NCBI GenBank assembly: GCA_030390025.1
Contig: CM059432.1
Location: 48,610,001 to 48,674,000 of the forward strand
DNA: 64,000 nucleotides
Source of the DNA: Squalus acanthias
Lineage: Eukaryota
Reading direction: 5' to 3'
The notes beneath the pieces are model-generated. The model did no database searches. It saw only the letters and a list, made by a program, of their open reading frames with translations, and was not told where the DNA came from. How positions within the stretch are numbered: the stretch's first letter is position 1; each line of letters starts with the position of its first letter. Position numbers and translations under genes: made by a program. Shown piece after piece: positions 11,881-60,924 of the stretch.

Positions 11881-13946
11881 CTTTCCATTCCTGACACAAT
11901 CTGCTTGATTTTACCCAAATAGCTACTCTGCTCTACAGCCTTGACTTTTCTCTCCAGACATAAATTTACCCTCCCACCCTCTTATTAGATTTTTAATCTA
12001 AAAGTCGGAAAAAGATAAGTGACATCTGGGTTTCAACATATCAACCAGCCATTACTTCCCCAAATGCTTCTTCAACAGGCTTTCCCTCCTTCCAACCTCT
12101 ACTCCTCTCGCAGTTCACAGAGGCACTCTCTCCCTTCCAATCTCCAGTTCATGTTGGTACTCTTCTCCCTTCCTCCACTCTTTTCCTAGAGCTTTAGTTC
12201 AACTGCACATTCATTCTCCCTCACCTCCACCCCCCACCATGCCAGTAAATGCTTACATTCTCCTTTGTCCCCCTGTCCAAGCTGCCAGTCCTCTCAATTT
12301 CACCCCCTCCCCATTTCAGCACGGCTTCTGTTTTTTCATTGGGGGCCAGAGGGAGGAAGAAGGAATCCTCAGATCAGTGCAAAATACAAACAAATAATTC
12401 TTTAGTGCTCTACTCCATCCCACCGCTCTTTCCCATATCTAATTTTGTTGCTTAGTAGCAACAGATTATTTGTACTTCTTTAAACAATTTGAAAATGCAT
12501 TGAGCAATATTCAAATATAACTTTTTTGTTGTGTGCATTTTATTCTCATTCATAAAGTTATTAAAATTTCATATTTTATAAATAGTTTTGCAGGTTGGAG
12601 AGCAATATTCTAATTTGAAAATATAGATAATAAAGATGGATAGATTTCATTTAGAATAGAATATGAAATACAGTATTAAAGTTCATATGAGTTCCAAATC
12701 TTGCCTGCAATTTGCAAGAATGACCTCTTATATCCACCATCCTTACACCCCTGGCTTTAAGCATTATGATAATCCATCAGTTCAATTCTCATAACAATTT
12801 TTTCCTTTGCACAATAGTCAGATTACATTATTAATGTCACCTGGTAGCATTTCAAGTGCTTATTCTAGCCTAGGGATATTTTTTATGTAGAAATTATGCC
12901 TTTGTCAGTGAGAATTTTTAAAGCAGTTCTTCTACCTGCAATATAATTGAATGCATTCCATATGCCTACAGTCCTTTATAAAAGGCTTCTCCAATCTGAG
13001 ACGCATTGGGGAGCAATCCACATTGGAATGCATTTGCCAAATTCTCTGGCCGGGATTTTCCTTACCTTGGCGGTGCCGGGGCGGGCGATGTCAGTGGCGG
13101 GTCACGGCCCTGCTGCTGGCTCCATCCCGCTGTCTAAAATGAATTTACGCTGATAGGGCTTGTTAAGCCCACCCAGCGCGTTTATGGCCCAATTAGAGGA
13201 AGTGTGTCTGGTGATGTGATTCATGCTGCATCATCAGCCGGATTCCTTAAAGGGACCATGGCCAACTTTCTTTTAACATTTGTGCTGTCAGTGTGCTACA
13301 GCATTGAAGTGCTGCAAACACTGACAATGACTGCACAGAGGTGCAGGGCTGCACCCAGGTTCTCCCATGACTCCCCCATATGCTTATGAAGGGAGTCAGA
13401 GCAAGTAGGGAGGTCTTCTTCCCTTCCCATGGGCAGAAGACACCTCCCCAGGAGACCAACACAGCCTGGTTGCACATTGCAGAGGAGGGCACAAGCAGGG
13501 ATGTTGTCAGGAGGACCAGGCTGCAGTGGCACAAACCTTTCAATTATCTCATTAGATCAGGAAACGTTAGTACAAAGCCACACTCATCTTCATCCTGCTG
13601 TGCCTCTCATCACATCCCCATCACTCTGCCTTCCCTACCCTACTCCTGCACATCCTTACTCACACCAACTTACCTTGCACCTCCATCCATCCCTCTCCCT
13701 CTATCTACATTATCACATCCTCATCTCACTAGCCACCTCTCACACTCACCCTCATCCTAGTGCAATCATACCAACTAACAACACACAAGAGTAGGCACTT
13801 GGGTGTTTTATCCAATGTTCATGTAAAGTTTCTGTTAATGTGGTGTCAAACATTGAAACCTTTATTTTCAACACTCTGTTCTTGGACAGATTTGTGTGCA
13901 CCTTTGGAAGTGGCTTAGTGATTTGCAGTGAATGGTGAGACATAAT

Positions 13947-14774
13947 GGGCTGGATTTTCTCAATGGAGATGTGCTGGAGACGGGACCTCTGGTTTCCGGG
14001 TTTCAGTCCCGCCTCCAGTGACGTCTGACCAACCCACGCTATTTTCCCTTGATAGGCCTTGTTAAGCCCGCCCTCTGGGCTTACTGGCCAATTAAGGGAA
14101 AGCCGGTGTCAGATGATGTATGACGCTTCATCTGTCGAAAAAATTTTGACAGATGAATTGTCAGCACTTGACAGCTTTGAGAAGCTGTCAAACACTGACA
14201 ATCACTGTTCTAAGGTGAGCCCTTGAACACAGGCGCACCAAGACCTCTCTCCTCAGCAGAAAGCAGATGGCTGCTGGATCTGAGAATGTAGCAGACATTC
14301 TGTCATCTCTACCGTTGAGATGAGGCACCTCCGGATCCTCAAAGGTTGAAGCCTGCAGAAAGAAGCAAAGGTAAGGAAACATTTTTCCAACACTTTACAC
14401 TCACCTCTCATACTTACCTGTCCACACTTGCACCCATCACTTACCTCTATAGCTGACACTTCGACCCCTCTCACCCCCGCAGACCCACTGCTCGCCTCAC
14501 TGGCCCTGGCGAGGTTCGCAGCCGTCGGGAAGCCTGTAATTGCAGGCGTAAAAAGGGGAAAAGCCTCAAAACTACCTGTTACCTACCTGTTAACAGGCAG
14601 TTAATTGGCTCTAATCCCCTGCCCGCCTTGAGGAGACGGGTCCCTGCACGACTCGGGGACCCGCCTCCCGGGAAGATGGCACAGAGGTGGGTTGGGAGCA
14701 GGGTTGGTACCCACTCCCAGTTTCTGCCATTTTCCTGGCAGACCCGCCTCCCCAGGGCTGGGAAAATTCCCCCC
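13947..14774. mobile_element. Harbinger-type MITE, family A, copy 2 (nested)
   Basis: Same termini as 1338-2105; TSD AAT; empty site visible in the paralog near 25660-25670. Confidence 0.9.
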
Positions 14775-15162
14775 AATGGTATCCCCACAATGGTGGTGAG
14801 TGTGAAAGGAATGGCTTGGACATTGTAGGGATGCTTTATTGTGTTGGTGTGGGGTGGTGCCAACCTGGCGTATCATGTGGCAGCCAGACTATACAGTGTA
14901 AAGTGAAGTAAATCTGGCCATGGTGAGGCCATCCCTGGCCTCCCGGGCAGCAATGTGCTTGTGTGCTGATGCCCTCTGTCCTGTGCAGCACCAGGTGATT
15001 GCGGAAAAGGTGGATGTTGTTGTTGGTGCTGCTGGTGTTGGGGCTGATCGTGGTCGGATACTGAGGACCAAGGTGAGACAGTATAAAGGGCACCCATGTT
15101 GATGGAATAGACAGGTGAAGTACAGATGACAGAAGCATTCTGTCAGTGGTGAGAGAGTTTTT

Positions 15163-15781
15163 CATAGAAACATAGAAAAATAGGAGCAGGAGTAGGCCAT
15201 TCGGCCCTTCGAGCCTGCTCCGCCATTCAATATTACCATGACTGATTCTCTATCTCAATGCCATATTCCCGCTCTCTCCCCATACCCCTTGATGCCTTTT
15301 GTGTCTAGAAATCTATCTATTTCCTTCTTAAATATATTCAGTGACTTGGCCTCCACAGCCTTCTGTGGTAGAGAATTCCACAGGTTCACCACCCTCTGAG
15401 TGAAGAAATTTCTCCTCAACTCAATCTTAAATGTCCTACCCCGCATCCTGAGACTGTGACCCTCGTTCTAGACCCCCCAGCCAGGGGAAACATCCTCCCT
15501 GCATCCAGTCTGTCTAGCCCTGTCAGAATTTTATACGTTTCAATGAGATCCCCTCTCATTCTTCTAAACTCTAGTGAATACAGGCCTAGTCGACCCAATC
15601 TCTCCTCTTACGACAGTCCTGCCATCCCAGGAATCAGTCTGGTGAACCCTCGCTGCACTCCCTCTATGGAAAGTATATCCTTTCTTAGGTAAGGAGACCA
15701 AAACTGCACACAATACTCCAGGTGTGGTCTCACCAAGGCCCTGTATAACTGTAGTAAGACATCCTTGCTCCTGTACTCATA
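15163..15781 (-). mobile_element. CR1 3' fragment nested in the Harbinger derivative
   Basis: [30 protein letters not shown] and tail repeat; absent from the paralog 24795-26543. Confidence 0.9.
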
Positions 15782-17689
15782 TTTTCCAATGAGGTAAGAG
15801 TGAATGGAGAGTGGAAAGTAGAAAGCCTGCAGAATCTGTGCTGGATATGGACTGAGAAACAACTTGTGGCTGAGGAAAGTGATAATCTGTCAGGTGGGAG
15901 CTTTTACTGTACATTTGAAGCTGTCAAGTAATCAGCTGGAGCAATGGCCATTGAACCCCCACCTCAGGTTGACAGCCATGGTCCCTGAACGGCATGGTTC
16001 CCATGGCCATTAAGTTAAAGTGAAAAGGTAAGTTAAAAAAGCCTGTTAATGATCTGTCAACTAGACGTTAATGAGATTAATTGGGACGCCCGCCGTTGCG
16101 TGTCGGGTCTGCTCAGCGCTGACAGACCCGACATTGGGAAAGGCGCTTTGCGGCGGATTGACAGCGGGGTCCTGACCCGCCATCAAAAAAATTAAATTTT
16201 CCACCCGACCCGCCACCGATCCCGGAAAATTCCGGCCTCTGTTTTTCCCATTGTGAGAAGAACCACTCCTCCAAGGCCGATGATGGCCAGAGCTAACATT
16301 TTTAGCACTACGAATATAATCTGTACTCTTGTGGCCCACTTCACGCTCAGGCAGTTCAAGATACCCAGGACCAGAATAGCAACCAAAGCTACAGTCTTCT
16401 TGATTCAGGTGGTGCACAGCCAGAGTAGAACGGTTGGACAACATATTCAGCAAAAAGTCAGTGCTTTGGCAGCAGAAGCTGCTGGTCTGATAAAGATGAT
16501 CGTAATCCACGGGAGAAGGAAAGCAAGGATTGAGCCCAGTGGCCTCTTCACATAAAGATATTCTCCTCCAGCTGATGGCAAGGCAGCTCCTAATTCAGCA
16601 TAACACAGGGCACCCAATGTGCAGAGGATCCCACACCATAACCATACCATCAGTGCTACTCCAATATTAAGCTGGGAATACCTCAGCATCCCTCCTGGAG
16701 AGACAAAGATTACAGATCCTATTATTCTACCTACTATAAAATTAACCCCATTAAACTATCCAATTGTCCGCTTAAGGTGTACACCTCCATCGTTTTGTTT
16801 TCACTTTCCTTTGCTTGACTGTCATTCACTTCCATATCTTGATATTTATTATTTGTCTCTATTAATCAGATCTAACATCCACCAGCTACGTACATGTACT
16901 CAGCTGGTGTAGCAGGTTGAACTGATCAAGGTTAAATTGCACCATATTTGTGCTACTGTACCTTTTAATTCTGTGTACTTTGCCCCATTTTGTTAATATT
17001 TTATAAAGTAACAGTAAATGAACCTAGCTCAATTAATATCCAGTCTAAATGTTTGAGATAAGGGAGATAGGCAATGAAGCAGGGATATGGAAGTTTTTTT
17101 TCCTCACACAGAATACTTTAGAATCCAGGAATGGGTTTATTTCATGGGAAGAAAAACTCTTGTGATTAATGTAATCACATTTTTTTGCTTTCTTTGGAAA
17201 CTATTTTTCTTCATTCAGTGTAGTTTTCAATCTCAAACAGAGAGATTTGAACCAGAGGATGGAAATAAACCTAATGTAGAAGTTAAAAATGTTTACAATG
17301 GTTAGAAAAAAATTGAGGGTAAGGATAGTGTTAGAATTTCTCATAAGGGTAGGTTTGAAAATAATGGAAAGAATGGACTTTGAATGAGGTTAATTTTGGC
17401 GGAAATCTATGACAAAATGGAAATAAAATTATGTTTTTTATTTTCTTCAAGGAAGGCATTGATTCCTTGCAAGGGTACTTTCAGATGTCTGCACAAAGGT
17501 GAGGGTATGGAATAATTTAAACAAGTAAAACATTCACCAGGAAAAGGGAGGACAACGATTAAGTTGATATTAAACTATCGTGAAGTGAAGGTAATGCACA
17601 GAGTTATCTTATATCTAATTGTGAGCTTGTGGAAAATGTTGATGTATGGGAGTACTTCAGCTCTAGTGGGAGTAAGAGAACTATAGGAC

Positions 17690-22707: not shown

Positions 22708-23550
22708 GGGGGAAAAATTCAGTTGGTTGCGCTTCCCGTTAGCGTCTTAAGAGGGCGCTAATGGGGCGCAAAGCAACTAGCGCCCGGGCGCGGCGATGTT
22801 TGCGCCGCTTGCGAAATTAACTAGACATTTTGCGGTGGCGCTAAACACTACTGCCACGATCTCCTGCGCCGGCAGATCGTGACATTAGTCGAGTGCGTAG
22901 CGCCCCGGAGTGGATATTGAGTGGCACCCCCTAGCAACGACAGGTTGAGGGGAGCGTTTTGCAGTCAGGGACTGGGGGAGCGCTATTTAAAGGCTACCGC
23001 TTCCTGCCTTTTTTTGTTGGTGACATTTTTGAACCACACATTCTGAGAGAGAGAGAGAGAGAGAGACTTCTGGAGAGATTCAACGCTGTGTGAAGGAGTT
23101 TTGGGTACTGAGCAGCACTTTGCAGGTTCATTTTGATTTGCCCTTCCTTGTATTGATTTAGAAGAGACTGTGGGGGCTGCACTCTGAGCTCTTTCCCTGG
23201 TACTCTCCATTGTTCTTTCCAGTAGATTTGATGTACAGGTCTCTCCAGGCCGAGATTCAAGGCTGCAATGAGCAGGATGTGGATGGAAAGCAAGATCAAC
23301 CCTCCCCTTTAAGAATTGTTCCATTGCTGACTGACATCACATGAGCTTCGCCAGCACTCTGAGTTAGCGCCTCGCTTCTCGGCCTTTGCGCCTTAAGACA
23401 GATGTGTAGCGCCTGATTTAGCGCTCCAATCACCTCCAGCGGCGATAAAAGTCAAGTTTGCAGTCGGAGGCGATAATTAGCGCCAGGCGCTAATCCTTGC
23501 GCCCGGCTGATAATTGCGCCCCAAATGGGGCGATACTGAATTTCTCCCCC
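22708..23550. mobile_element. Harbinger-type MITE, family B, copy 1
   Basis: 16-bp TIR GGGGGAAAAATTCAGT / ACTGAATTTCTCCCCC; TSD TAT; highly similar to 43863-44757 in reverse. Confidence 0.92.
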
Positions 23551-24297: not shown

Positions 24298-24794
24298 ATT
24301 ATTTTGTCACTACACACAAATACACAATATAGGAGATTTTCCTGGATTTGCACACAGGCGCACTGGATCATGGGTGCAGTAAATATTGGAAAATTGTGTG
24401 TGTCTGTAAAGGAGTCGGTCCGATTTTCCACCCCTTGGTGTTGACCTTCTTTGTTTTCCCACTGGAGTCTGCTCTGCTTTACCAGCGCTTGTGTTTCCAT
24501 ATCGAACTGTCTTAAGCACCAGCCCCCATCCCCCGCCCACCACCTCAACTATTCACATATTCTCTGTCTCTCATGTATAATTTATTTCATTATGCCTCCT
24601 ATTATCTCATATTAATATAATTTCAGACATTTAACCAATTCCTGAGCACTTTACAGATCATTATATTTCTTCTCTCATTTGTGTTTGAGTGTTTGTGTTG
24701 TTTTCTCTCCCCCTTCCTTATGTTCTGGTCCTTTTTAAATACTATTCGTTTGTAATATCTTCAGTTCTGTTGAAGGTTCCCCACCTGAAACCTT

Positions 24795-26543
24795 GGCCGG
24801 AATTTTCCAGGGGGTCAGCGGGCAGGATTGGTGGTGGGTCGGGTGGGAAATTTGATTTTTTTGACAGCGGGTCAGGAATCTGCTGTCAAGCCGCCGCAAG
24901 GCGCCTTTCACAATGGCGCGTGTGCGATCTCCGAACCGATCCGCAGAGGCAGGCGACCCAATTAAACCAATTATTGGGTTGTTGACAGACCCTTAATAAC
25001 GCTTTTAACCTTTCCTTTTAACTTTCACTGCTTGCCCACAGGGTCCACACTGCTCAGGGACCACGTCTGTGAACCTGAGGCGGGAGTTGAATGGCCATTG
25101 CTCCAACTGATTATTTGACAGCTTCAAATGTACAGTAAAAGCTCCCACCTGACAGATCATCACTTTCCTCAGCCACAAGCTGTTTCTCAGTCCATTTCCA
25201 GCACAGATTCTGCAGGCTTTCCACTTTCCACTCTCCATCCACTCTCAACTCATTGGAAGAACTCTCTCACCATTGACAGAATGCTTCTGTCATCTCTACT
25301 TCACCTGCCATCTATTCCATCAACATGGGTGGCCTTTTTACTGTCTCATCTTGGTCCTCAGAATCCAACCACGATCAGCCCCAACACCAGCAGCACCAGG
25401 CACACCAGCAGCACCAACAACACCACCCTTCTCCGTAATCACCTGATGCTGCACAGGACAGAGGGCATCAGCACCCGAGCACATTGCTGCCCGGGAGGTC
25501 AGGATTGGCCTCACCATGGACAGATTTACTTCACTTGACTCTGTATACCCTGGCTGTCACATGGCACGCCAGGTTGGCACCACCCCACCGCAGCACCATA
25601 AAGCATCCCTACAATGTCCAAGCCATTACTTTCACACTCACAACCATTGCGGGGGGTACCCTTATGTCTCATCATTCACTGCAACTCACTAAGCCATTTT
25701 CAAATGTGCACACAAATCTGGCCAAGAACGCAAAGTGTTGAAAATAAAGGTTTCAATGTTTGACAGCACATTAACAGAAACTTTACATGAACATTGGCTA
25801 AAACACCCAAGTGGCTACCCTTGTGTGTTGTTAGTTGGTATGATTGCACTAGGATGAGGGTGAGTGTGAGAGGTGGCTAGTGAGATGAGGATGTGATAAT
25901 GTAGATAGAGGGAGAGGGATGGATGGAGGTGCAAGGTAAGTTGGTGTGAGTAAGGATGTGCAGGAGTAGGGTAGGGAAGGCAGAGTGATGGGGAGGATGA
26001 AGGTGAATGTAGCATTGTACTAATGTTTCATGATCTAATGAGATAATTGAAAGGTTTGCGCCACTGCACCCAGGTCCTCCTGACAACATCCCTGCTTGTG
26101 ACCTCCTCTGCAATGAGCAACCAGACTGTTTTGGTCTGCTGGGGAGGTCTCTTCCGCCCATGGGAAGGGAAGGGGACCTCCCTACATGCTCTGACTCCTT
26201 CCATAAGCATATGGAGGGAGTCATGGGAGAACCTGGGTGCAGCCCTGCATCTCTGTGCAATGATTGTCAGTGTTTACAGCACTTCAATGCTGTAGAACAC
26301 TGACAGCACAAATGTCAAAGAAAGTTGGCCATGATCCCTTTAAGGAAACCAGCTGATGACGCGTCATGAATGACACCATCAGACCCGCTTCCTCCAATTG
26401 GCCCGTGAAACTCGCTGGGCGGGCTTAACAAGTCCTATCAACATAAATTCATTTTCTAGAGCGGGATGGAGTCAGCAGCGGGGCCTCAATCCACCACCGA
26501 CATCGCCCGCCCCAAACCCGCTGAGATGAGGAAAATCCCGGCC
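24795..26543. mobile_element. Internally deleted Harbinger element (paralog of 13048-16237, reversed)
   Basis: TIRs GGCCGGAATTTTCC / GGAAAATCCCGGCC; near-TSD CTT/TTT; Myb exon 1 on the minus strand (KTVWLLIAEEVTSRDVVRRTWVQWRKPFN). Confidence 0.9.
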
Positions 26544-29500
26544 TTTAATTCATTCATTGTGTCATCACTGAAGGATTCAGCACCCCCAGCACAACTTTTT
26601 CAACTTACTGAGATATTCCCTATAATAATTTTAAATTATTTTGCCTTGCCATTTTAATATTGGCCTCTCATCAATGTGAAGTGGTTCAGATGTGCACTTA
26701 CCTGAAAGCAGTGGTGTGACTTGGGAGTTAGTTCAATGACCTGATTCCCAAGTGCACTAAGGACAAGAGGTGTGAGAGGTAAGTTGACTTGTACTGCATA
26801 GGCTTTGCACCAGGTATAGTACAAATCAACCAAGTTGAGAAAGCAGGCTACAAAAGTTCCCAGAGCCATAAGGCTCAGAAGCATTTAAAGAAAATCGGGC
26901 AGGGCGTTTAACGAGCAGCCAATCCGTTACTGCCAGTTTTGTGATCTTGCCGAAGTTGAATTTTATCCCCAATATTTTAAATGTTAGAAGAAAGCCTTTA
27001 CTGCTGCCGATATCTTGCAACTGAAATGTAACCAGCTAGACATGCTTCTTTACTGCTGGAAAGAGTGCAATATGACGCCAAAAGTGTGATTTGGGAACTC
27101 AGGTTTGTTGGCTCTGCATTGCATTGTATAGATATTAGTGTGAAACCAATACATGCAGCAGAAGGTCCCTCTCAGTGCCACAAATGAATGTAGATTTCAG
27201 ACTACTATTTTGTGATGGGATCAACCTATTCCATTGATTAAACTTTCTAATTTATTTCCCTGTACGTTTCTCCTGGCTCAGCCAGCCATATATTTTCTGC
27301 CCCTTCCTAAATCTCTGTCACGGCTCTTCAAACCTTTGCGTTCCTCTCTCTCTCTCCCTATCTTTGGTATCAATTGGAAGAATCCAATCACAGCTTACAA
27401 TCCAAAATGCGCCCTACAAAAACCATTGGCACTTTCCTGCTGAAATAGTATCATTCATTTTGAGTGAATATTAATGACAAATGTCATGCTGCTTGTGTTA
27501 TCCTGATTTTCGTGTCCAGTGGTGCAGTCTGTTATTCCTGGAGGTGCTGAACAGAAACAGGTAAGCTGTCATTTATTAAATTCTACGCTATGTTAAATTT
27601 ATATCAATAAAGGTATAATGCAATAGATTCTATTCATGTTCTTTTATTTAATACTCTGTCCTTATCAATACAAAAGTTCAGATGTTTAAAAACTGTGGGA
27701 ACAGATCGAAGAGCCAACAAATTGAAGAATATCCTGAAGGGTTCCTCAATCATTAACCATAAGCCAAGCTTTTTTTTTGAATGGCCAAAAAGCAAGTTAG
27801 CACTAGTTTTCAATGATCATAAAATTATCTCAATCTCTTTTAATACAACAAATGTTTCAGCTAAACAATCATATATTTTATCCACAAACATATAGAAATT
27901 TAAATCACAAGAAATGAGAATTTGTACACTGTGATTACAGGAATTTCTTAAAGAAATGTTTGCTGATTTATTGGAAAGCTAGTAGAAGCACTTGTCTTCA
28001 AACAGAACTTACACAGGAGCAACCCACAGGTTAAAGCATTTCTATTCATGCAACCACAGGCAGAATAAACTAAAACACTGCAATGTCTTTTTAATCATTT
28101 TTGTGAGCTCCATTTCTGAGGTAGATCTGGAGAACCTGGCAGAAAGGCAATGCCCATCTTAGGTGTCCTTGTCTCAAATCTTTTGCTAATTATTGTACAG
28201 CGAGACGTTTAGAATTAATTTGTGTTAAGCTGCACCAGTGCTGGCCAAGAGTGAGGCATTTTCTCTGTCTTTCTCTACAGGGTAGAAATTACTCTTGCTG
28301 CTGTTATTGTAAGAATACTTAAAGTGTTTGTGTTAAATTCCATTCTATGCTGTTTAAATGGAGGCATTAACCTGGTTGTTTTAAGTGGGTTAATGCCTTC
28401 ATTATAATAGTGGAGAGAGAATTGGAAAAACTTCCCAAATCGTAGCAGGATCAACCCTGTGCGAATATATGGGATGCTTTTCTCTTTTCATCGTTGTTTT
28501 TAATTTTTTAGCCTGTCACTATTTTCTCTGCCATTTCCTAGCTCCATCCCCATTATCAAGAGCATGGGCCATATCTGAAAAACATACATTGTGAATGCAG
28601 AATAAGTGAAAGCAAGGTAATAGAATGGAATGTTATATCCTGCTTGTGCAAGGGACCTAAGTGCCATTGTAGTTTTGCTTACTATTACTGTATTGTGAGT
28701 TATTTATGGCTCACCTTATACAGTATTAACATATCATTCTATTTTTCTTAAGTTTAAAAGTTTTAAAAAGTTTGAGTTTCCAAGCTATCACATGAAAACA
28801 ATAGCTACTATCATAATATCTGTTGTAGGTCAAGAACAGACAATGTTGAAAACAAAACATCATGTAGATGATTATCTGAATGAGAAAGATAGTCCGATAT
28901 TTCATCAGAAGAGTAACCCAACTTTTTCTTCAAATGCTGATCAACCTGCTACACATTGCCAGCACTTTCGAACTTCCATCTTTCACATTCTTATCATTTC
29001 AAGAGTATAGTAAAGCATTGCTTAATGGGAAAATTCCCATATCAGCAGGAACAAAGCAATCTCCATTCTAATGTTCTTTTTGCAGCCTGGTGGACAATTT
29101 CATCACCAACTAAAAAGAGCACCAGCTGCAGATGAAGGTTTATTAATTATTGGCTAGCAGCTAGGGTTTTTGCTGCGGGATTTATATCGTAATTTATATA
29201 CATTTTTTCATGAAGTAAATGAATCATCATAAGCAATGGTAAATCTACTGCACATCAGAAAACCTGGGGCCATATTCAGAACAGGCTTAGGCAGCATCTG
29301 TGGAGAGAGAAACAGAGTTAATGGCGGAATCTTTACCTGAGCGTTGGGGCGGGTGCGTACGGGCTGCCATCGCAAACTTTTTAACAACGCGTTCTGCACC
29401 GTGCGTTTAACTTAATTACATCAATTGAAACATGTGGGTTTCCTGGCCGAATTAAATGGAGCGGGTCTGCTGATGTCACCGATGACTCGTTTTCAGCTCG

Positions 29501-29609
29501 GACATTTAAAGCAGCCTTGCACACATCCCAGTTGAAGGTTGTTGGAGGAGAGATAAAGGTGGTTGGGAGAGGTGGAAATTGCTGGCAATCACAGAGATTT
29601 GTGTGGGTC

Positions 29610-31224
29610 ATGGAGTCACACTGACAGAAGGCTGCGCCCAGATTCACTTGATGCCTCCCTGGAAGTCCCTGTCCAGGGAGTCAGAGCACGCAGGGAGGTC
29701 CTGTTCTCTGGGGATGGGTGAAAAAGAGCAGCCAGAGACACCAAGAAGGCATGGCTGGAGATCATAGGAACATAAGAACAGGAGTAGGCCATTGAGCCCC
29801 TCGAGCCTGTTCCGCCATTCAATGAGATCATGGCTGCTCCGTGACCTAACTCCAAATACCCGCCTTTGGCCCATATCCCTTAATACCTTTGGTTAACAAA
29901 AAGCTATCAATCTCAGATTTAAAATTAACAATTGATCTAGCATCATTTGCCGTTTGCGGAAGAAAGTTCCAAACTTCTACCACCCTTTGATCGTGGAGGT
30001 CAGCAGCAGGGATGTTGTAAGGCGGTCCTGGATCCAGTGCCGGAAAAGATTTAATGATCTCATGAGGTCAGGAAAGGTGAGTGCAATGCCACATTCAACT
30101 ACATCCTAATGTGCGTGCCACCCCAACCCCATCACTCTGCCTTCCCAAGCTTACTCCTGTACTCACATCCCCATCTGACTAACCACCACTGACACTCACC
30201 CTCATCTTAATGCAATCATAGGAAGTAACGCCACAGAAGAAAGCCATTTGGAAATGTCATGCCACTCCCTCATTGTGACCCTCTACAGATGTAGCCCATC
30301 CATTCCTTACACTCATTCCATCACTCTCACTCAAAGTTCTCTTCTTTTCATCCTTGCAGGAGAAGAGAGTCCAGACCAACAGGGAGAGACAAAAAACTGG
30401 AGGTGGCCCTCCAATGTTCACCAACTTGAGTCCAGCAGAGGAGGAGGTGCTTCAAATCACCAGAGTTGCGAAGCTGCTGGCGGTGGGAGATGGAGAAAGG
30501 GGGACCTCCCAGCAACCTGGTGACAGAATTAAATCTCATAAACCCACATGGCATACAACAGTCACTCATGGTGACTTGATGTCAGCAGCCAGTGAAATGC
30601 CATCATTTACATAATGGTAACATTACACATTCTTATCATAAGACTTCTAAGTCATGTCTTTACCCTCCCACAGGTCCATCAAGTACCCCCCCCCACCCAC
30701 CACTGTCCAGCCTGAGGAGGAAGATGACTCATCAGAGGAAGCTCCACTCTGAGGGTGCACTGTCACCAAACCCATACGCACCCAGCACCATCGCAGATAC
30801 ACGCACCTCGGTGGGTCCAGCGAGACATAGAGTAGTGTTGTCACCTGGTGTCTCACAGTTCACAAGCTAGCAAGAGCAGATGGTGGAGACAGGGACAGCA
30901 GTGGAGACTCCTCGCCGGAGGGCGCAGGACGCTGCCAGCTCTGCTCAGCTGCATGTAGACGCTGAACCTCGGGAGCCATCGAGAAAGAGGGTGATCTTGG
31001 AGAAGCAGCAACAAATGCACGAGGCTCTGGCAGCTTTTGCAGCCACGATGTGTGTGAGTGTACAGAGAATGGAGGAGTCCATCTCCAACATGAGCATCAC
31101 CATCTCGCAGGCGATGGCGACGATGTGCTGTTCCATGGAAAGCTTGGCCACCTGCATGGAGCAGCAAATGCGCCAGTCGAACGAGAACATGCCTGCTGTG
31201 GACAAGATTGTAGACACTCATTGA
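29610..31224 (+). pseudogene. Harbinger Myb/SANT-like gene, 3 exons, interrupted by CR1
   Basis: AAPRF; WIQCRKRFNDLMRSGK then GTGAGT; TTGCAG then EKRVQTNRERQKTGGG; GTGACAG donor; third exon similar to element 1. Confidence 0.8.
29762..29988 (-). mobile_element. CR1 3' tail fragment
   Basis: CR1 3'UTR and tail repeat, flanked by GATC(A/G)T. Confidence 0.8.
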
Positions 31225-31269
31225 CCTCATCTTGACGAGGGATACCAACTGCTCCTCAGCTCCTTGCTA

Positions 31270-32461
31270 GCAAGGAAGTACGGGTGGCCCATGGGAAGGA
31301 TATGCAATGTGCACCGCTGCTGGTGCCATCTCCATCTCAGGTTTCTCCTCCTCTTCCTCCTCGTGTTCCACCTGTTCCTCCTCCTCCTCCAAAGAGGCTG
31401 TGTGTTCTGCGCTTTGCTCCTCCTGCAGCTCCAATCCTCGCTGCTGCGCTCTGTTGTGAAGCTCGCAGCATACGACGATGATTCTGGAGACCCTGGCTGG
31501 TCCGTATTGTAGGGCTCCTCCAGATCTGTCAAGGCATCTGAAGCGCATCTTCAGCATGTCGATTGCTTGCTCTATGACACATCTGATGGACATGTGGCTG
31601 TCATTATAGTGCTCCTCGACCTCATTGCTTGGCCTCCTCAACGGTGTCATCAACCACGTCTTCAGTGGATAGCCCTTGTCTCCAAGGAACCATCCAGTAA
31701 GTCTGTTTGGAGGTGCGAAGAGCTGAGGGAGGGTGGACTGGTGCAGCATGAAAGAGTCATGACAGCTGCCAGGGAATCTGGCACACACATGCATGATAAT
31801 CTTTTTATGGGTGCAGCATTGAGGGAGTGAAAGCCCTTGTGGTTCACAAACACTCCTGGGTGATGTGGGGGTGCCTTGATGGCCACATGTGTGCAGTCAA
31901 TGATGCCCTGCACCTGTGGGAAGCCAGCCAGAGCTGCAAAGCCGAGCGCCTGCTTAGTAACACTGGCTTCATCAGTGGCAAAGTTTACATAATTGGCTGA
32001 CATGTGAAACATGGCATCAGTCACCTGGGTGATACATCTGTGGGTGGCCGACTGAGAGATCCAGCAAATGTCTGCTGCAGATCCCTGGAAGGAGCCTGAG
32101 GTGAAGAAGTTGAGGTCGGTGATGACTTTGACAGCCACTGGTAAGGCATGTCCACCAGGTCCTCTGGGCAGCAGGTCTTGCTCCAGCAATCTGCAAATGT
32201 CTGCGATGACCTGACGCGATAGCCTGAGCCTCCTGAAGCACTGCTGCTCCGTCATGTTGAGGAAGCTGATCCTCTGCCTGTATACCCTGTGTTGGGAGTA
32301 TTGCCTCTGGCGCAGTGCACCCCTGTGCTGACCCCCTCTCTCCTGTGGAGCATCAGGTCAGTGAGGAGAAGGCTGCTGCTGCTGCTGCTGGTGTGGCTGG
32401 TGCTGAGGCTCATCTTAGTCCCATTCTGAGGTCCAAGGTGAGACAGCATAAGCGGCACCCA
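31270..32461 (-). pseudogene. Harbinger DDE transposase, frameshifted
   Basis: [52 protein letters not shown]. Confidence 0.92.
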
Positions 32462-32951
32462 TGCTAATCTAATAGATGCCAGGAGATCAGAGGCACAATC
32501 CTCCAATGTACTGGGAGTGACTAGCAATGTGGTGAGAGTGGCTTCATAGGTTCCAGAAATCACCTGCAAACTCCTGAAAGCTAAATCTCTGCACCAAATG
32601 GTGTCAGCAAGAGCCTTTCCATTAGGCGAGGAAGCAGGGGTAAGGTGTGAATATTTATGTGCTTTTTCCAGCTGTCACTTAATGAACTCGCACAATGGCC
32701 ACTGAGCTTCCGCCTCCCCTTCACAACCAGTTAAAGTTCAAACCTTACGTTAAAAAGGCAGTTAAGGGTCTGTAAATGAGCAGTTACGTACCTCAATGAG
32801 GTCGCCCGTGTCTCCTGAGCCTCAAAATGCGCCCGAGTTAAAGACAGAAGTCGACGGGATGACGGCAGGTTACCGACGCGGTCAAATTCTGCGCTTTTAA
32901 CCGCCGACCCGTCCCCAAACCCACACACTCTCCAATGTGAAAATTCCGGCC

Positions 32952-33078
32952 AATGTTTCAGGTCCAAAGGTCATCGACCTGAAACGTTAACTCTGTTTCT
33001 CTCTCCACAGATACTGAGTATTTCCAGCATTTTCTGTTTTTATTTCAGATTTCCAGCACCCGCAGTGTTTTGCTTTTG
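32952..33078 (+). repeat. Penelope-like short repeat; inverted partner at 29290-29322 plus 32955-32964
   Basis: AGGTCATCGACCTGAAACGTTAACTCTGTTTCTCTCTCCACAGA...; same family as 60590-60924. Confidence 0.75.
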
Positions 33079-34138
33079 TGCTAAACAAGCTTTTATGATT
33101 AAAACCAAATAAGTACTTTTGGTTCAGATGGATTTTTTTGTTCAATAATTTTTTTCTCAAAACACATCATTAGCTAAAAGTGTTTTTTATTTAGATTGTG
33201 AAATACCACATAATGATAATTTAAAACATTTTACAGCACCTTGCAATGATTTGGGGAATTCAGTTACTAATTGATGTCTCAAAGCCTATTTTTAAAAATA
33301 GGTCATTTGTGTCTTTATTTTGTTATTCTTTCACATAGAGCCTACATGAATCTCTGAAGGCAACAGACAATGACTGACATTGCTGAGAGTGAGAGATGGA
33401 AGATTTGCTTTATATGGTTGAGCTTTCTTTCTACTTTATCATCAATTTAAACTGGTTAAAAATATCACTGAAAATTGCAACATTTTTATATTTGAAACAA
33501 TTTATTTTTCTCACACTATTGAAGGCTACTTTCCAAAAGGTTTTATGTGGTTAAGATAAAATGAAATAAAAGCAAAACTGAATGTTAGCATAAATCACTT
33601 TAAATCCTGTCTGTAATATATTCCTTCCTCGGTACTCAGCCTCTGCAAATATGTGCTCACTGGATGCACTTAACAGGCATGGCAACGTTTGGGAGCTGGC
33701 CTCGTGGGTAGGGGAGGGAAATAGATGTGATTACCACCACAGTATAGTGTGGTAATCTCCTGCATTGTCTAGTGCAATCATTCACTATTATAAACTGCAC
33801 TAGGCAAGTCAACCCTTTCATTTTTTAACATATCCTCTGTCTTGCTTGATGCCAAGAATGCAATGAGATTCAGCATTGCTAAGGTATTCATGACAGGAAA
33901 CATGTTGGACGATGTCTTCCTTTTATTACCCTGTAACTTTCATACATATTTACCGCCCACCATTATCTCGAAGGACAAAAGTGGTGGGAGGCATTGAGGA
34001 GCCAGTGAAATGGCTCCCTGCCACAATTCCTGCTCCCGCCCATTCCAAAACTGCCCCAAAATTGGTGTAAATACAGAAGAAAATCTGGGTCAATATCTCA
34101 AGACAGAATTTATTTGTCAGACTTTTGCGTGAATTTTT

Positions 34139-34325
34139 CGGAGCAAATTAACCTAACCCGTCCGTTGGGAAATTGACGGGATCGGGTGCAACGCTGGTTT
34201 TACACCCTGCCCGGTTTTACTCTCCATTGAAGTCAATGGATAGTAATATTGGGAAGGGTGTAAAACTAGCATTCCCCCTGATCCCATGGGTTTCCTGATG
34301 GGCGGATAAGGTTAAAACTACCCCC
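34139..34325. mobile_element. Palindromic (fold-back) MITE
   Basis: Imperfect whole-length inverted repeat centred on CCATTGAAGTCAATGG, with arms such as GTTTTACACCCT / AGGGTGTAAAAC. Confidence 0.7.
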
Positions 34326-36432
34326 AATCTTTAAAGTCAGTAATAACATTATTTCAAGAATATGACCCCTGGATTTCCCCGTTATTCTTTGTTAATGCAA
34401 ACATAAACTTTTAATATAACCCATATTTCCCATTCAAGAAACAAAGATTATAATTAGGTGTAGTTTGTGCATGATCGGTCAGATCACGCAATTACTCTAA
34501 CACACTTAAAGCCAAGACCACATTACAACTTCAAACATCACTCAAACCTGAAAACAAGGTTTGACAATTAATCAACATGCTGATATCAAAATAACTTTAT
34601 CTCATTACTATACGAGTATAATTTTTGTTAAGATTCCTTTACAGAGCCATGTTAATTTATCATAGGCTACATGTAAAAGAGATACATGTGTTTTTGTCAC
34701 ATTTAAAATACTGAGAATATATGTTTAAAAAAAATTCCTCCACAGTTATGGCTATGGAAATCCAATAAGCATACAAACTGGACAGAATTTAAACCTGATG
34801 AAAGTTTCTCCCTTGCAGGTCACAAATGTAATCTCCAACAAAGATGAAGTAACTCCCATGTAGGATTGACTATCAGTCTTAATATTTGTTACATCTTTTC
34901 TTCAGTTGTTGCTCAAGGTGATACCTTATTCCAGATGTCACCCGTTCCATCCTCATCAACCACTATGTCTCCTTCAGTTTGTTTTAACTGCAAAATACCA
35001 ATGAGACAAATGAGTGCTTGTTTTAGTCAGGGCACCACATAATTCAACAAAAGCACAAACACACAAAAATTCACAGGTTTCAATGAAAACCTTTCAAACA
35101 GTTTGACAGCACTGCTTTCAAAAAGAAATGCTTGGTCCAATGAAAAATTGCAGCCAAACATTTTAAACAAAATAAATCAGTGGCAGCCACAATCCCTTGT
35201 TATAAATATTTAGCCCTTAATGTTTGCTTCCAAATCTGAAAAAATCACTACATCTGATTTCAGACAGACTGTCTGTTGATGGAGGGAAGCTGTTGTAGGT
35301 AGCTATTTTCCTTCAGTTAAATTATTTTTTAATCCCTTGTCCTGACAGCTATCCATTTTCTAGGCTCAGAAGCTCAGCAAATGATCAAGCTAAGCATTAA
35401 AGTTCTTCTTGTTGTTTCCAACCTATACTTCATCATTTGAAATGGGATAACATCTTAATCTTCATATCTGGACATCTGAGGGCTGAAATTCCACAGCCCG
35501 GGGTGGGTGGTGGGGGGCACCATTATCTGGACAGGTGGGGGAAGAATTTGGGGCAGGACCTGTGTACATTGAGTCCATGCCCTTTTTGACCCATCAGAAA
35601 TTCTGCAAGTTTTAGGAGCAGGCACATAATACACCAGCTCACAAATGGGCAGGTGTGTTGTGACGCGTATTTCTCTCAGTTAGGCCTTAATACATACTGG
35701 GTGCAAGAGACACCTGTACATCATTGAAGTCCAGCGTTGCTTAGGGTTTGGGGGGATTTAAAGCTCAAGGTGAATTTTCTGTAAAGCAATCGATTGCAGA
35801 GCAAAGTGACACAGTGAAATCCCTCCCCCACCTCAGGCTGGCACCCCAATTGCAGGAAGAATGGAGCAGGCGGTCTTCAGAATTACCAAGTGGAGTGATG
35901 ATCGGTGCAGCTGATCTACCAATTCAGTCAGTCATCATAGCCAGCCTGGTCATAATACCATAAGACCTTGCCATTATTCTTACTCTGTGGCAGCTTCCAC
36001 AGCTCTAAGGTGCAAGTTCATCGAGGTGACGTTAAGTCGGCGTGTGATGTTACCCACTCTTAATTTACAGTTCCAGGGCCAACGCATCTGTCGCCGAGTC
36101 CCGCGCCAGATCGCACGAAAACTCGTGACAGTAAGTGGGCCAATTTCTAGGCCATAAGCTGCAATCAACAGAGCCACTATTATTTCAGGGAATATCGATG
36201 GACAATTAGGGATGGGAAATAAATGCAGCTTTTCCAGTGCCAGCCAGACAAGAAAATTTTTTTTAAAAAATTAATGGCCAGACGGAGAACTAGACTGGAC
36301 TAGGGTTCCAGAGATACCGTCTTGATTCATCACTTATATTATCAGTCTAAAATCCAGGAGTCACAGCTCAAAACAATATAATGAGGCACAACTTCTTCCA
36401 GTTCTGTAGAAAGGTCATCAACCTGAAACATT

Positions 36433-36974
36433 GGCCCTGATATTGACAGGGATGAGTTTTGTAAGTGGGGCGGGTGAGGTCATTCGGTCGGGAGACCTGG
36501 AAGTCCGGGTTTCGCCGCATGCTGTGGCGTTTTAACCGACCCCGAGTTGGGTCCAATCCCAAGGGGAGGGGGTCCGGGACCCCGGGGGTGGGGGGAACTC
36601 TGATCTCCGGGGAGCGTTGGCAGGGAAGAAGGTAAGCATGGGCGGCGGGCGGTGGGGGGGGAAGTATTCCTGCTCCTCCTCGCCCACAAGCAGTGCTGTA
36701 AAGCCATTTACCTTTTCCCCAAAGTTGTTCTCGCCTCCCTTGAGCTGCAGGGTTAAAGCTGTAAGACAGGTTAAATGTGAGGCTCGCAGCCTCATTATAT
36801 TTAAATGGCCAACCTGTCCCCTGAGAGCGGTTTGGCTGCTCGCCCCCTGTCCCGCCTCCGTTAAACCCGGAATGGGCGGGTTGGAGGCGGGTTGGGATCA
36901 GGCTTGAGATTTAAAAAATTTTAACATCTCACCCGACCCCAACCCACCGGTTTTTGGGGGTTAAAATGACTCCC
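36433..36974. mobile_element. Harbinger-type MITE inserted in a Penelope-like repeat
   Basis: Termini GGCCCTGATATT...TTAAAATGACTCCC; near-TSD ATT/GTT; host repeat continuous across it; similar to 57804-58719. Confidence 0.8.
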
Positions 36975-37067
36975 GTTAACTCTGTTTCTTTCCCCACAGA
37001 TGCTGCCGGACCTGATTTTCTCTTTTTATTTCAGATTTCCAGCATCTGCAGTATTTTGCTTTTGCTT

Positions 37068-43862: not shown

Positions 43863-44757
43863 GGGGGAGAAATTCAGTATCGCCCCATTTGGGGCGCAAT
43901 TATCGGCCGGGCGCAAAGATTAGCGCCTGGCGCTAATTATCGCCACCGACTGCAAACTTGACTTTTATCGCCCCTGGAGGTGATTGGAGCGCTAAATCAG
44001 GCGCTTCACACCTGTCTTAAGGTGCAAAGGCCGAGGAGCGAGGCGCTACCTCAGAGCGCTGGCGAAGCTCATGTGATGTCAGTCAGCAATGGAACACACA
44101 CACAATGGCACCAGCCAGTTCTTAAAGGGGATGGTTGATCTTGCTTTCCATCCACATCCTGCTCATTGCAGCCTTGAATCTCTGCCTGGAGTGACCTGCA
44201 CATCAAATCTGCTGGAAAGAACAATGGAGAGTACCAGGGAAAGAGCTTAGAGTGCAGCCCCCACAGTCTCTTCTAAATCGATACAAGGAATGGCAAATCA
44301 AAATGAACCTGCAAAGTGCTGCTCAGTACCCAAAACTCCTTCACACAGCGTTGAATCTCTCCAAAAGTCTCCCTCTCTCTCTCTCTCAGAATGCGTGGTT
44401 CAAAAATGGCACCAACGATAAAAGGCAGGAAGCGGTCGCCTTTAAATAGCGCTCCCCCAGTCCCTTCATGACTGCAATTCGCTCCCCTCAACCTGTCGTT
44501 GCTAGCGTCAGGCGGTAAGGCAGGGGGCGCCACTCAATATCTGCTCCGGGGCGATACCGGGGCGTTGCGCACTCGACTGACGTCACGATCTGCCGGCGCA
44601 GGAGATCGTGGCGGTAGTGTTTAGCGCCGCCGCAAAATGTCTAGTTAATTTCGCGAGCGGCGCAAACATCGCCGCGCCTGGGCGCTGGAAGCTTTGCGCC
44701 CCATTAGCGCCCTCTTAAGGCGCTAACGGGAGGCGCAACCAACTGAATTTTTCCCCC
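43863..44757. mobile_element. Harbinger-type MITE, family B, copy 2
   Basis: TIR GGGGGAGAAATTCAGT / ACTGAATTTTTCCCCC; TSD TAT; sits inside the CR1 tail repeat. Confidence 0.92.
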
Positions 44758-60589: not shown

Positions 60590-60924
60590 TCAGAGCCATC
60601 TTTCGTTCCTTAACTTGTCCCATTACCATCTCCTTTTGCCTTGCACCATCTCTTAATCTCTCTTAATGTCTCTTAATCTCTCCTGCCTTCCATCCTATCA
60701 CAGACCTTCCCTTTTGTTCTTTCCACCCCTCCCCCCTTTCCCTGCCTCTGTACTTGCTTAAAAACCTGTTACATCTCTAACGTTTTCCAGTTCTGACAAA
60801 GGGTCATCGACCTGAAACGTTAACTCTGTTTCTCTCTCCACAGATGCTGCCTGACCTGCTGAGTATTTCCAGTATTTTCTGTTTTTATTTCAGATTTCCA
60901 GCATCCGCAGTATTTTGCTTTTGT
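60590..60924 (+). mobile_element. Penelope-like short retroelement with minimal hammerhead motif
   Basis: TSD ATGAT (60585-60589/60925-60929); absent from the homologous position of element 4. Confidence 0.78.
60789..60825 (+). ncRNA. Minimal type I hammerhead ribozyme-like motif (one core mismatch)
   Basis: AGUU-CUGACAA-AGGGUC/AUC/GACCU-GAAAC-GUU-AACU: stem I AGUU/AACU, stem II, palindromic AACGUU in place of stem III; CUGACAA rather than CUGANGA. Confidence 0.65.

What the first reader, a model, noticed from the sequence alone, without database searches (positions are those of the whole stretch)
24760..36990. Three different Harbinger elements inserted at the identical nucleotide: the hammerhead cleavage triplet of a Penelope-like repeat
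Seen: the intact repeat reads GACCTGAAAC-GTT-AACTC (60809-60826, also ~32976-32993). Three copies are split with exactly this triplet as the TSD or near-TSD: CACCTGAAAC-CTT|24795-26543|TTT-AATTC; GAGTT-AAT|29323-32951|AAT-GTTTCAGGTC (minus strand); AACCTGAAAC-ATT|36433-36974|GTT-AACTC. The three inserts differ in size and content and have different flanks, so they look independent. Established: Harbingers make 3-bp TSDs and some have strong target preference; the triplet after GAAAC is the NUH site of a hammerhead. Inference: these DNA transposons use an abundant ribozyme-bearing retroelement as a site-specific landing pad and destroy its catalytic site. I do not know of this having been described.
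Basis: partly seen in the sequence, partly recalled or inferred. Interest (0 to 1): 0.85.

Follow-up and report, generated by a model that had tools for sequence, protein, structure and literature searches.

The report
Harbinger hot spot in Penelope repeat
Cut-and-paste Harbinger-type transposons repeatedly land on the same three bases of a very abundant retroelement tail, mostly because that spot resembles the short target sequence these transposons prefer everywhere, so it is a real but largely ordinary hot spot.

Summary
Three independent Harbinger-type insertions sit at the triplet after GAAAC in three different copies of one repeat. It also holds genome-wide. There are about 2,500 such junctions from at least six kinds of terminal repeat, against 84,145 intact sites.

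The repeat is the 3' tail of a Penelope-like retroelement. Longer copies carry reverse transcriptase, then a GIY-YIG nuclease, upstream of the tail. Its motif fits the published "minimal hammerhead" description, but no Rfam model matches it.

The "site-specific landing pad" reading is only partly supported:
- Only about 1.6-4% of each family's insertions are at this site.
- The families share a generic 15-bp target, ARASWC|WNW|GWSTYT. Its half-site is the one published for zebrafish Harbinger3_DR.
- A weight matrix trained on 98 insertions away from that junction ranks this triplet first in the repeat unit scanned.
- The matrix accounts for about 280-fold of the roughly 1,700-fold enrichment. 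A residue of 3-12-fold stays unexplained.
- CpG-decayed ATT copies are hit far more often per site than canonical GTT copies.
- An unrelated repeat has an even hotter site.

The scan had already noted this hot spot on another piece of the same genome.

The parts
24760..24794 (+). Left part of an old, diverged Penelope-like tail copy. It ends in ...CACCTGAAAC plus the left duplication CTT (24792-24794).
   Evidence: My hand alignment to consensus-like copies gives about 25 of 34 bases. One search gives 28 of 43 over the left 45 bases.
24795..26543 (+). Insert 1. A 1.75-kb non-autonomous Harbinger-type element with ends GGCCGGAATTTTCC and GGCCGGGATTTTCC.
   Evidence: It is 83-89% identical along its length to the element at 13048-16237.
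26544..26551 (+). Right duplication TTT followed by AATTC. The rest of the tail is barely recognisable.
29272..29322 (-). 3' part of the host tail copy of insert 2, including the duplication AAT at 29320-29322.
   Evidence: 29272-29321 matches the repeat at 90%.
29323..32951 (-). Insert 2. A 3.6-kb decayed autonomous-type Harbinger element. Its transposase is on the minus strand, split over two reading frames.
   Evidence: DDE_Tnp_4 E 6.9e-26 for 31267-31896 on the minus strand. Ends are GGCGGAATCTTTAC and GGCCGGAATTTTCA.
32952..32964 (-). Duplication AAT plus the 5'-truncated start (GGACCTGAAAC) of the host copy of insert 2. It lies head-to-head with the next copy.
32965..33079 (+). Intact tail copy. 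GAAAC is at 32981-32985 and GTT at 32986-32988.
36390..36432 (+). Left part of the host copy of insert 3, with the duplication ATT at 36430-36432.
36433..36974 (+). Insert 3. A 542-bp miniature element of another family, with ends GGCCCTGATATTGAC and GGGAGTCATTTTAACCCCC.
   Evidence: It shows no DNA match to the other inserts. Its right-end type recurs genome-wide with the same flanking motif.
36975..37064 (+). Right duplication GTT plus the rest of the host tail copy.
60592..60924 (+). Uninterrupted, 5'-truncated Penelope-like tail copy. The hammerhead-like core is at about 60792-60821 and GTT at 60819-60821.
13048..16237 (+). Control case. An element of the same family inserted outside the repeat, with duplication TCT.

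Best explanation
Several Harbinger-type (PHIS superfamily) transposon families in this genome choose targets by a shared 15-bp sequence preference. It has six flanking bases on each side, roughly A-R-A-S-W-C, around a 3-bp W-N-W duplication.

The 3' tail of a young, very abundant Penelope-like retroelement carries GAAAC, the conserved part of its hammerhead-like core. GAAAC is a near-perfect left half-site. The tail also has an acceptable right half-site (AGAGTT, read on the other strand). So the three bases after GAAAC are the best-scoring target in the repeat unit scanned. In a loop-less minimal hammerhead those same three bases are the cleavage triplet.

Multiplied by about 84,000 copies, this one position collects a few percent of all insertions. 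The hit separates the core from the 3' strand of helix I, but that is a by-product and not a targeting of the ribozyme. The three hits in this window are independent old events. They form a tail case of that general process, in a stretch that is rich in such elements.

Shown here: the junctions, the genome-wide recurrence, the generic motif, its ranking of the site, and the Penelope-like context. Inferred: that sequence preference alone is the cause, and that the motif is a working ribozyme.
For: Recurrence across families:
- The pattern CCTGAAAYNTTGG plus 20 free bases gave 2,653 matches against 319 for the backwards control. By my reading, 72 of the first 100 continue with Harbinger-like ends of at least six kinds.
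- Window family: 77 ends abut CTGAAAY-NNN, of which 58 have NTT. A further 33 ends abut CAGAGTT-NNN, of which 28 have AAN. Controls gave 0. The exact end sequence occurs 2,706 times.
- Largest family: 927 left ends and 790 right ends, out of roughly 76,000-80,000 ends.
- Intact sites number 84,145.

Generic motif:
- 98 of 100 sampled ends of the window family do not abut the GAAAC triplet. They give -9 A/G, -8 G/A, -7 A, -6 S, -5 A/T, -4 C, then W-N-W.
- This is the half-site of the published Harbinger3_DR target AAACACCWGGTCTTT (passage in PMC3016246). Extended 9-15-bp preferences are stated to be a general PIF/Harbinger trait (PMC2836001).
- The third family shows the same flanks.

The model finds the site:
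- The matrix ranks the triplet first in a 635-bp copy of the repeat, with weight 212.
- It ranks fourth a neighbouring site that is in fact used.
- It predicts 0.64% of insertions here (bootstrap 0.24-1.34%). A uniform model predicts 0.0023%, and 3.9% is observed.

The decayed variant is preferred:
- Of 22 largest-family elements on contig C1 with both junctions listed, 11 have ATT/ATT, 7 have GTT/GTT and 4 are discordant. I paired these by eye.
- ATT makes up only 9 of the first 100 intact sites.
- That is about 16-fold per site. The matrix predicts 6.5-fold.

The site is not unique:
- In an unrelated repeat, 11 of the first 100 copies carry a Harbinger-like end at one fixed position.
Against: - The matrix under-predicts the site. 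The shortfall is about 6-fold for the window family and about 2.5-fold for the largest family.
- Within the repeat, the triplet is used 10-13 times as often as the rank-4 site. The prediction is 4.1 times.
- The rank-2 site has 1 end in 8,048 copies, where about 4.6 would be expected.
- Occupied copies look older. About 14 of 69 have GAAAT, against 6 of 100 intact sites. The pool of targets at the time may therefore have been smaller, and the true excess could be up to about 12-fold.
- The matrix rests on only 98 half-sites and assumes that positions act independently.
- The matrix fails badly on the other repeat. Its weight there is 54, yet 3 of the 100 sampled ends lie there. So the matrix cannot exclude an extra factor.
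- The window itself has 3 of 6 credible elements at this site, far above the genome-wide rate.
Confidence: 0.7

Rival explanations
1. The repeat attracts Harbinger integration by something beyond the 15-bp motif. Candidates are the overlapping palindromes AACGTT and GTTAAC, the head-to-head tail pairs, an open or unmethylated chromatin state of young Penelope-like copies, or tethering by the element's DNA-binding protein. On this reading it is a true preferred landing pad.
For: - There is a residual 3-12-fold excess over the matrix.
- The window family is asymmetric. It has 58 ends on the GAAAC side and 28 on the other side, while the largest family is symmetric at about 640 and 608.
- 7 head-to-head pairs within 65 bp occur among the first 100 intact sites.
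- 3 of 6 credible elements in the window are at this site.
Against: - The site is the top prediction of a model trained on ends away from that junction.
- Only 1.6-4% of insertions are at this site.
- ATT variants are preferred, as the generic model predicts.
- An unrelated repeat is hit even more often per copy. So excess over the matrix is not special to this repeat.
Confidence: 0.17
2. Most junctions descend from a few composite copies (a tail that already carried an insert) which were later amplified by retrotransposition or segmental duplication.
For: Some flanks in the largest family recur many times. One flank appears about 17 times in the first 100 listed ends, including three places spaced 4,247 bp apart. 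So composite amplification does occur in this genome.
Against: - At this site there are at least six kinds of element end and several sub-terminal sequences.
- The duplications vary: GTT, ATT, TTT, CTT.
- The junctions are spread over many contigs.
- The three window hosts differ in extent and in sequence.
Confidence: 0.04
3. Retention bias. Insertions are roughly motif-driven everywhere, but those inside dead repeat copies are kept while others are removed by selection or by precise excision.
For: Two abundant repeats both show high occupancy. Precise excision of PIF/Harbinger elements is described in print (PMC2836001).
Against: Most of a 3.7-Gb genome is presumably neutral, so selection could give only a small factor. 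Retention bias also does not explain a single-nucleotide peak within the repeat.
Confidence: 0.05

Closest known systems
Harbinger3_DR of zebrafish (reconstructed element; target AAACACCWGGTCTTT). I know it from a passage in PMC3016246. The original paper, PMC2290759, is not held.
   Same: It has a two-part 15-bp target with a 3-bp duplication in the middle. Its half-sites AAACAC and AAAGAC equal the A-R-A-S-W-C found here. It is a vertebrate host.
   Different: Its duplication is CWG. Here it is W-N-W, flanked by C and G. It is described as highly specialised for its target, whereas the families here use many sites.
PIF, Ping/Pong and mPing of plants, with a 9-bp extended insertion preference (PMC2836001, passages).
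   Same: A preference that reaches beyond the 3-bp duplication, and the same superfamily.
   Different: They have a TTA/TWA duplication and a shorter motif, and they are plant elements.
The Nuwa and Pangu groups of the PHIS superfamily (PMC4482050, passages).
   Same: Element ends start with GG or GGG. Duplications are ANT, or TNA flanked by C and G. A Myb/SANT second gene is described for the Nuwa groups.
   Different: I built no transposase tree, so the group is not assigned. The duplications here mix the ANT and TNA types.
Minimal hammerhead motifs in the terminal repeats of Penelope-like elements (Cervera and De la Pena 2014, PMC4209133, passages).
   Same: CUGAYGA, an unpaired base, a 5-bp helix II, GAAA, a palindromic ACGU with no loop, and a short helix I. 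Motifs are widespread as truncated copies and as pairs on opposite strands.
   Different: The 10.1-11.1 pair is A-U or G-U here, not G-C. No activity data exist, and no shark or ray example is mentioned in the passages I saw.
Nested insertion preference of miniature transposons in maize and rice (Jiang and Wessler 2001). I saw it only as a reference-list entry in PMC2836001. PMC139471 is not held.
   Same: By its title only: insertion preference read from elements nested in other elements.
   Different: Plants. I did not read the content.

Membership tests
PIF/Harbinger (PHIS) DNA transposons | DDE transposase of the DDE_Tnp_4 type | tested here: met
   Insert 2, 31267-31896 on the minus strand: PF13359 at E 6.9e-26, 91.2 bits, against a cut-off of 24.8. 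The gene is split over two reading frames.
PIF/Harbinger (PHIS) DNA transposons | 3-bp target-site duplication and terminal inverted repeats | tested here: met
   AAT/AAT, TCT/TCT, CTT/TTT and ATT/GTT, with ends GGCCGGRATTTTCC.
PIF/Harbinger (PHIS) DNA transposons | Second gene for a Myb/SANT-like DNA-binding protein | tested here: inconclusive
   Pfam found no such family for the plus-strand frames of insert 2; the only match was a sub-threshold Tsi1 hit. A frame at 29629-29763 has an in-frame stop. The resemblance is from my recall only.
PIF/Harbinger (PHIS) DNA transposons | Classical TWA duplication | tested here: not met
   The duplications are W-N-W flanked by C and G. By duplication type they are closer to the Nuwa or Pangu groups (PMC4482050).
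Site-specific (homing) transposon | Most insertions of the family lie at one defined site | tested here: not met
   106 of 2,706 ends (3.9%) in the window family. About 1,250 of about 78,000 (1.6%) in the largest family. 2-3 of 100 listed ends in the third family.
Penelope-like retroelement | Reverse transcriptase followed by a GIY-YIG endonuclease | tested here: met
   In L014, upstream of the tail: RVT_1 at E 3e-6 (27.6 bits, cut-off 29.6; the domain is cut by the end of the locus), then GIY-YIG at E 2.4e-4 (21.8 bits, cut-off 22.6). Both fall just under Pfam's cut-offs. The linker is 30% identical (E 3e-10) to the frame that precedes an above-cut-off GIY-YIG match in L009.
Penelope-like retroelement | Variable 5' truncation and inverted partial copies | tested here: met
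   Copies start at different points and share one 3' end. Head-to-head pairs are seen.
Hammerhead ribozyme (minimal, Penelope-type) | Core CUGANGA ... GAAA ... UH, helix II, an unpaired base after position 9, and palindromic 15.2-16.2 | tested here: met
   7 of 7 aligned copies keep the GAAACGTTAAC part, and 6 of them read CTGACGA-A-GGGTCATCGACCT-GAAAC-GTT. The window copy has CTGACAA. A subfamily has CTGATGA-A-AGGTC, where the first helix II pair changes from G-U to A-U. Helix II appears in the minimum-energy fold.
Hammerhead ribozyme (minimal, Penelope-type) | Match to a curated model, or a fold better than chance | tested here: not met
   There was no hammerhead match in Rfam at gathering score or at E up to 10. 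The fold z-score is -0.67, and in the minimum-energy fold the core bases pair otherwise.
Hammerhead ribozyme (minimal, Penelope-type) | Self-cleavage after the triplet | not testable with these tools
   All listed sequencing runs are kept as contigs only.

The most novel reading that the evidence does not exclude
The ribozyme core must stay GAAAC, so the Penelope-like element cannot mutate away from the Harbinger half-site. That would make its tail an evolutionarily fixed landing pad for these transposons. On this reading the 3-12-fold excess over the sequence model and the strand asymmetry of one family reflect a real extra attraction, such as the overlapping palindromes, chromatin state or tethering. 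It should then recur in other vertebrates that hold both kinds of element.
Probability: 0.13. Interest if true: 0.55.

Novelty: new member of a known kind. Interest (0 to 1): 0.3.

Why it matters
The case shows how a modest, generic target preference multiplied by repeat copy number produces what looks like single-nucleotide homing. That is a useful caution for reading nested transposons. It also gives a natural data set for modelling Harbinger target choice: thousands of events at one site, with GTT and ATT variants side by side. It ties the abundant tail repeat of this genome to a Penelope-like element that carries a hammerhead-like motif. If the unexplained residue proved real, it would point to a second layer of target selection in this superfamily.

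Tried and rejected
- Rfam found no hammerhead. I searched the whole window at gathering score, and one window copy and one consensus-like copy at E up to 10.
- ARAGORN on L012 found no tRNA-like head.
- A GIY-YIG search of the genome returned one place, L009. Its element has no hammerhead-like motif and no copy of the tail, so it did not link the tail to a Penelope-like element. L014 and L015 did.
- Pfam and NCBIfam on the frameshifted L015 frames gave no match.
- RNA evidence for cleavage: no RNA holder was listed. All 24 runs are kept as contigs, which cannot show RNA ends.
Partner ends and two-sided sites are therefore missing for 72 of the 100 sampled ends, and the model is built from half-sites.
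- Papers not held: PMC2290759 and PMC139471.
- A library search for Harbinger + hammerhead + Penelope gave 2 papers. Neither is on this topic, judging by title and abstract start. Harbinger + shark + transposon + target site gave 8, none on this topic judging by titles.
- Chance coincidence in the window is rejected (and the genome-wide counts).
- Recent local hopping among the window's elements is rejected. The two closest elements are only 83-89% identical.


Full report
**What is in the window.**
The three junctions are as described.
- Insert 1 (24795-26543) has ends GGCCGGAATTTTCC and GGCCGGGATTTTCC. It lies between ...CACCTGAAAC-CTT and TTT-AATTC.
- Insert 2 (29323-32951) lies in a minus-strand copy with a perfect AAT/AAT duplication.
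- Insert 3 (36433-36974) has different ends and lies between ...AACCTGAAAC-ATT and GTT-AACTC.
- Uninterrupted copies read GAAAC-GTT-AACTC, with GTT at 32986-32988 and 60819-60821.

The core pattern is over-represented in the window. It gave 9 matches against a shuffle mean of 1.61, and 0 of 100 shuffles reached 9.

The host copies differ. One is old and diverged. One is a 5'-truncated stub lying head-to-head with another copy. One carries an internal deletion.

The inserts differ too. Insert 1 and insert 2 share only patches at 78-81% identity (one 33-base patch at 91%), and insert 3 shares nothing with them. So these are three separate events.

A fourth element at 13048-16237 is 83-89% identical to insert 1. 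It sits outside the repeat with duplication TCT. My scan for inverted-end pairs adds two more credible miniature elements, at 22708-23550 and 43863-44757, both with duplication TAT. In all, 3 of 6 credible elements in the window are at the triplet.

**What the parts are.**
Insert 2 carries a decayed transposase with a DDE_Tnp_4 match at E 6.9e-26. With the 3-bp duplications and inverted ends, this places the elements in the PIF/Harbinger (PHIS) superfamily. Pfam did not confirm a second, Myb-like gene.

The repeat is the 3' end of a retroelement whose copies are truncated at variable points on the 5' side. Longer copies carry, upstream of the tail and in this order:
- a reverse transcriptase fragment (RVT_1, E 3e-6),
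- a linker, and
- a GIY-YIG nuclease (E 2.4e-4).

Both matches fall just under Pfam's cut-offs. The reading frame ends about 330 bp before the motif, and the element ends about 115 bp after it. That is the Penelope-like architecture.

Six of the seven aligned copies read CTGACGA-A-GGGTCATCGACCT-GAAAC-GTT-AACT; the window copy has CTGACAA. A subfamily has CTGATGA-A-AGGTC, which changes the first helix II pair from G-U to A-U.

This fits the features that Cervera and De la Pena list for minimal hammerheads of Penelope-like elements (PMC4209133, passages):
- no helix III loop,
- palindromic 15.2-16.2,
- an unpaired base after position 9,
- a short helix I,
- opposite-strand pairs.

On that reading GUU is positions 16.2, 16.1 and 17, so cleavage would follow it and the duplicated triplet is the cleavage triplet.

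That remains an inference. Rfam gives no hammerhead match, even at E up to 10. The fold is no better than shuffles, with z -0.67.

**Genome-wide recurrence.**
The window's genome (3.71 Gb) can be searched by pattern.
- Intact sites matching CTGAAAYNTTAACTC number 84,145, against a control of 61.
- The left junction followed by GG occurs 2,653 times in a three-quarters sample, against a control of 319. By my reading, 72 of the first 100 continue with Harbinger-like ends of at least six kinds. That is roughly 2,500 occupied copies, or about 3%.
- Window family: the exact end sequence occurs 2,706 times. With the end written GGCCGGRATTTTCC, 77 ends abut CTGAAAY-NNN. Of these, 58 have NTT: 28 GTT, 23 ATT, 6 TTT and 1 CTT. 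A further 33 ends abut CAGAGTT-NNN, 28 of them with AAN.
- Largest family (end GGGCTGGATTTT): it has about 76,000-80,000 ends. Of these, 927 are left ends and 790 are right ends, with 69 and 77 of the first 100 showing the expected triplet. That is about 1.6% of its ends.
- Family of insert 3: 2-3 of 100 listed ends are at the site.

So the peak is real, but it holds only a few percent of each family's insertions.

**The generic preference.**
I fetched the flanks of the first 100 exact ends of the window family on contig C1. Two of them are at the hammerhead site.

The other 98 give a clear half-site: -9 A/G, -8 G/A, -7 A, -6 G/C/A, -5 A/T, -4 C, followed by a W-N-W duplication. This equals the half-sites of the zebrafish Harbinger3_DR target AAACAC|CWG|GTCTTT (passage in PMC3016246). 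It also fits the statement that the superfamily has extended 9-15-bp preferences (PMC2836001). The other two families show the same flanks in the listings.

A weight matrix from these 98 ends ranks the hammerhead triplet first in a 635-bp copy of the repeat, with weight 212. It ranks fourth a site eight bases downstream. That fourth site is in fact used, in L024 and in the counts.

The expected share of insertions at the 84,145 sites is 0.64%, with a bootstrap range of 0.24-1.34%. A uniform model gives 0.0023%, and 3.9% of ends is observed. The matrix therefore accounts for about 280-fold of a roughly 1,700-fold enrichment.

**Tests that separate sequence preference from ribozyme targeting.**
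First, I looked at largest-family elements on contig C1 for which both junctions are listed. I paired them by eye.
- 11 of 22 have ATT on both sides.
- 7 have GTT on both sides.
- 4 are discordant.

ATT makes up only 9 of the first 100 intact sites. Concordant ATT means the copy had already lost the CpG before it was hit. Per site, ATT is favoured about 16-fold, in the direction the matrix predicts (6.5-fold). The preferred target is thus the variant in which the 15.2-16.2 pair is broken, and not the canonical triplet.

Second, an unrelated repeat is hit at one fixed position in 11 of its first 100 listed copies, by several kinds of element end. Its matrix weight is only 54. So the Penelope-like tail is one of several repeat-borne hot spots.

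**What is left unexplained.**
- The site is used more than the matrix predicts: about 6-fold for the window family and about 2.5-fold for the largest family.
- Inside the repeat, the triplet is used 10-13 times as often as the rank-4 site, where 4.1 is predicted.
- The rank-2 site has 1 end in 8,048 copies, where about 4.6 would be expected.
- Occupied copies look older. About 14 of 69 have GAAAT, against 6 of 100 intact sites. The pool of targets at the time was therefore probably smaller, which could raise the excess to about 12-fold.
- The window family shows 58 ends on the GAAAC side against 28 on the other side. The largest family is symmetric. I have no tested explanation for this.
- The matrix rests on 98 half-sites and assumes independent positions. 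It misses the other repeat by a far larger factor. So I read the residue as being within model error, and an extra attraction is not excluded.

**Comparison and novelty.**
The mechanism is the known extended target preference of this superfamily. The specific coincidence has a structural reason: the conserved GAAAC of a loop-less hammerhead is itself a good half-site, so the duplicated triplet equals the cleavage triplet.

I did not find this coincidence in print with the searches. The original Harbinger3_DR paper could not be read.

The scan had already noted the same hot spot on another piece of this genome and reached the same reading (e1-7805368). Related notes describe the shared flanking motif (e1-7807215) and a satellite site (e1-7790025). 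I treated these as leads only. The counts here are my own.

**Verdict.**
It is a new example of a known kind of behaviour, of low to moderate interest.

Noticed in passing
L045, L060, L092 (left flank) and L041 (right flank); genome-wide: A second, unrelated repeat is hit at one fixed position (...AATAGAGGC|ATA|GAGTACAAAAG...). Several kinds of Harbinger-like end occupy it in 11 of its first 100 listed copies, although the target matrix gives it a weight of only 54.
   Followed up: partly
Genome-wide counts: The window's family has about twice as many ends on the GAAAC side of the site as on the other side (58 against 28). The largest family is symmetric (about 640 against 608). This may be an orientation bias relative to the asymmetric target.
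   Followed up: partly
window 32952-33079 and 53509-53644; listing: Penelope-like tails often lie as head-to-head inverted pairs. There are 7 pairs within 65 bp among the first 100 intact sites. This resembles the opposite-strand pairs reported for minimal hammerheads.
   Followed up: no
window 13048-44757: Six credible Harbinger-type elements lie within about 32 kb. By my rough estimate the genome-wide density is about one per 50 kb. The closest pair is only 83-89% identical, so these are old elements and not recent local hops.
   Followed up: partly
G000 contig C1, listing: One flank (TTATGTAGTGATCTTATCTTA) precedes the largest family's end in about 17 of the first 100 listed places. Three of those places are spaced 4,247 bp apart. 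This looks like a composite unit that was amplified after the insertion.
   Followed up: no
window about 29763-29990: A stretch inside insert 2 seems to interrupt the plus-strand frame that looks Myb-like from my recall. It may be a nested fragment of another repeat. I did not check this.
   Followed up: no
The 335-base tail copy is held, in part or nearly whole, by runs filed under ten coded organism labels. So the Penelope-like family seems to be shared by several related species.
   Followed up: no
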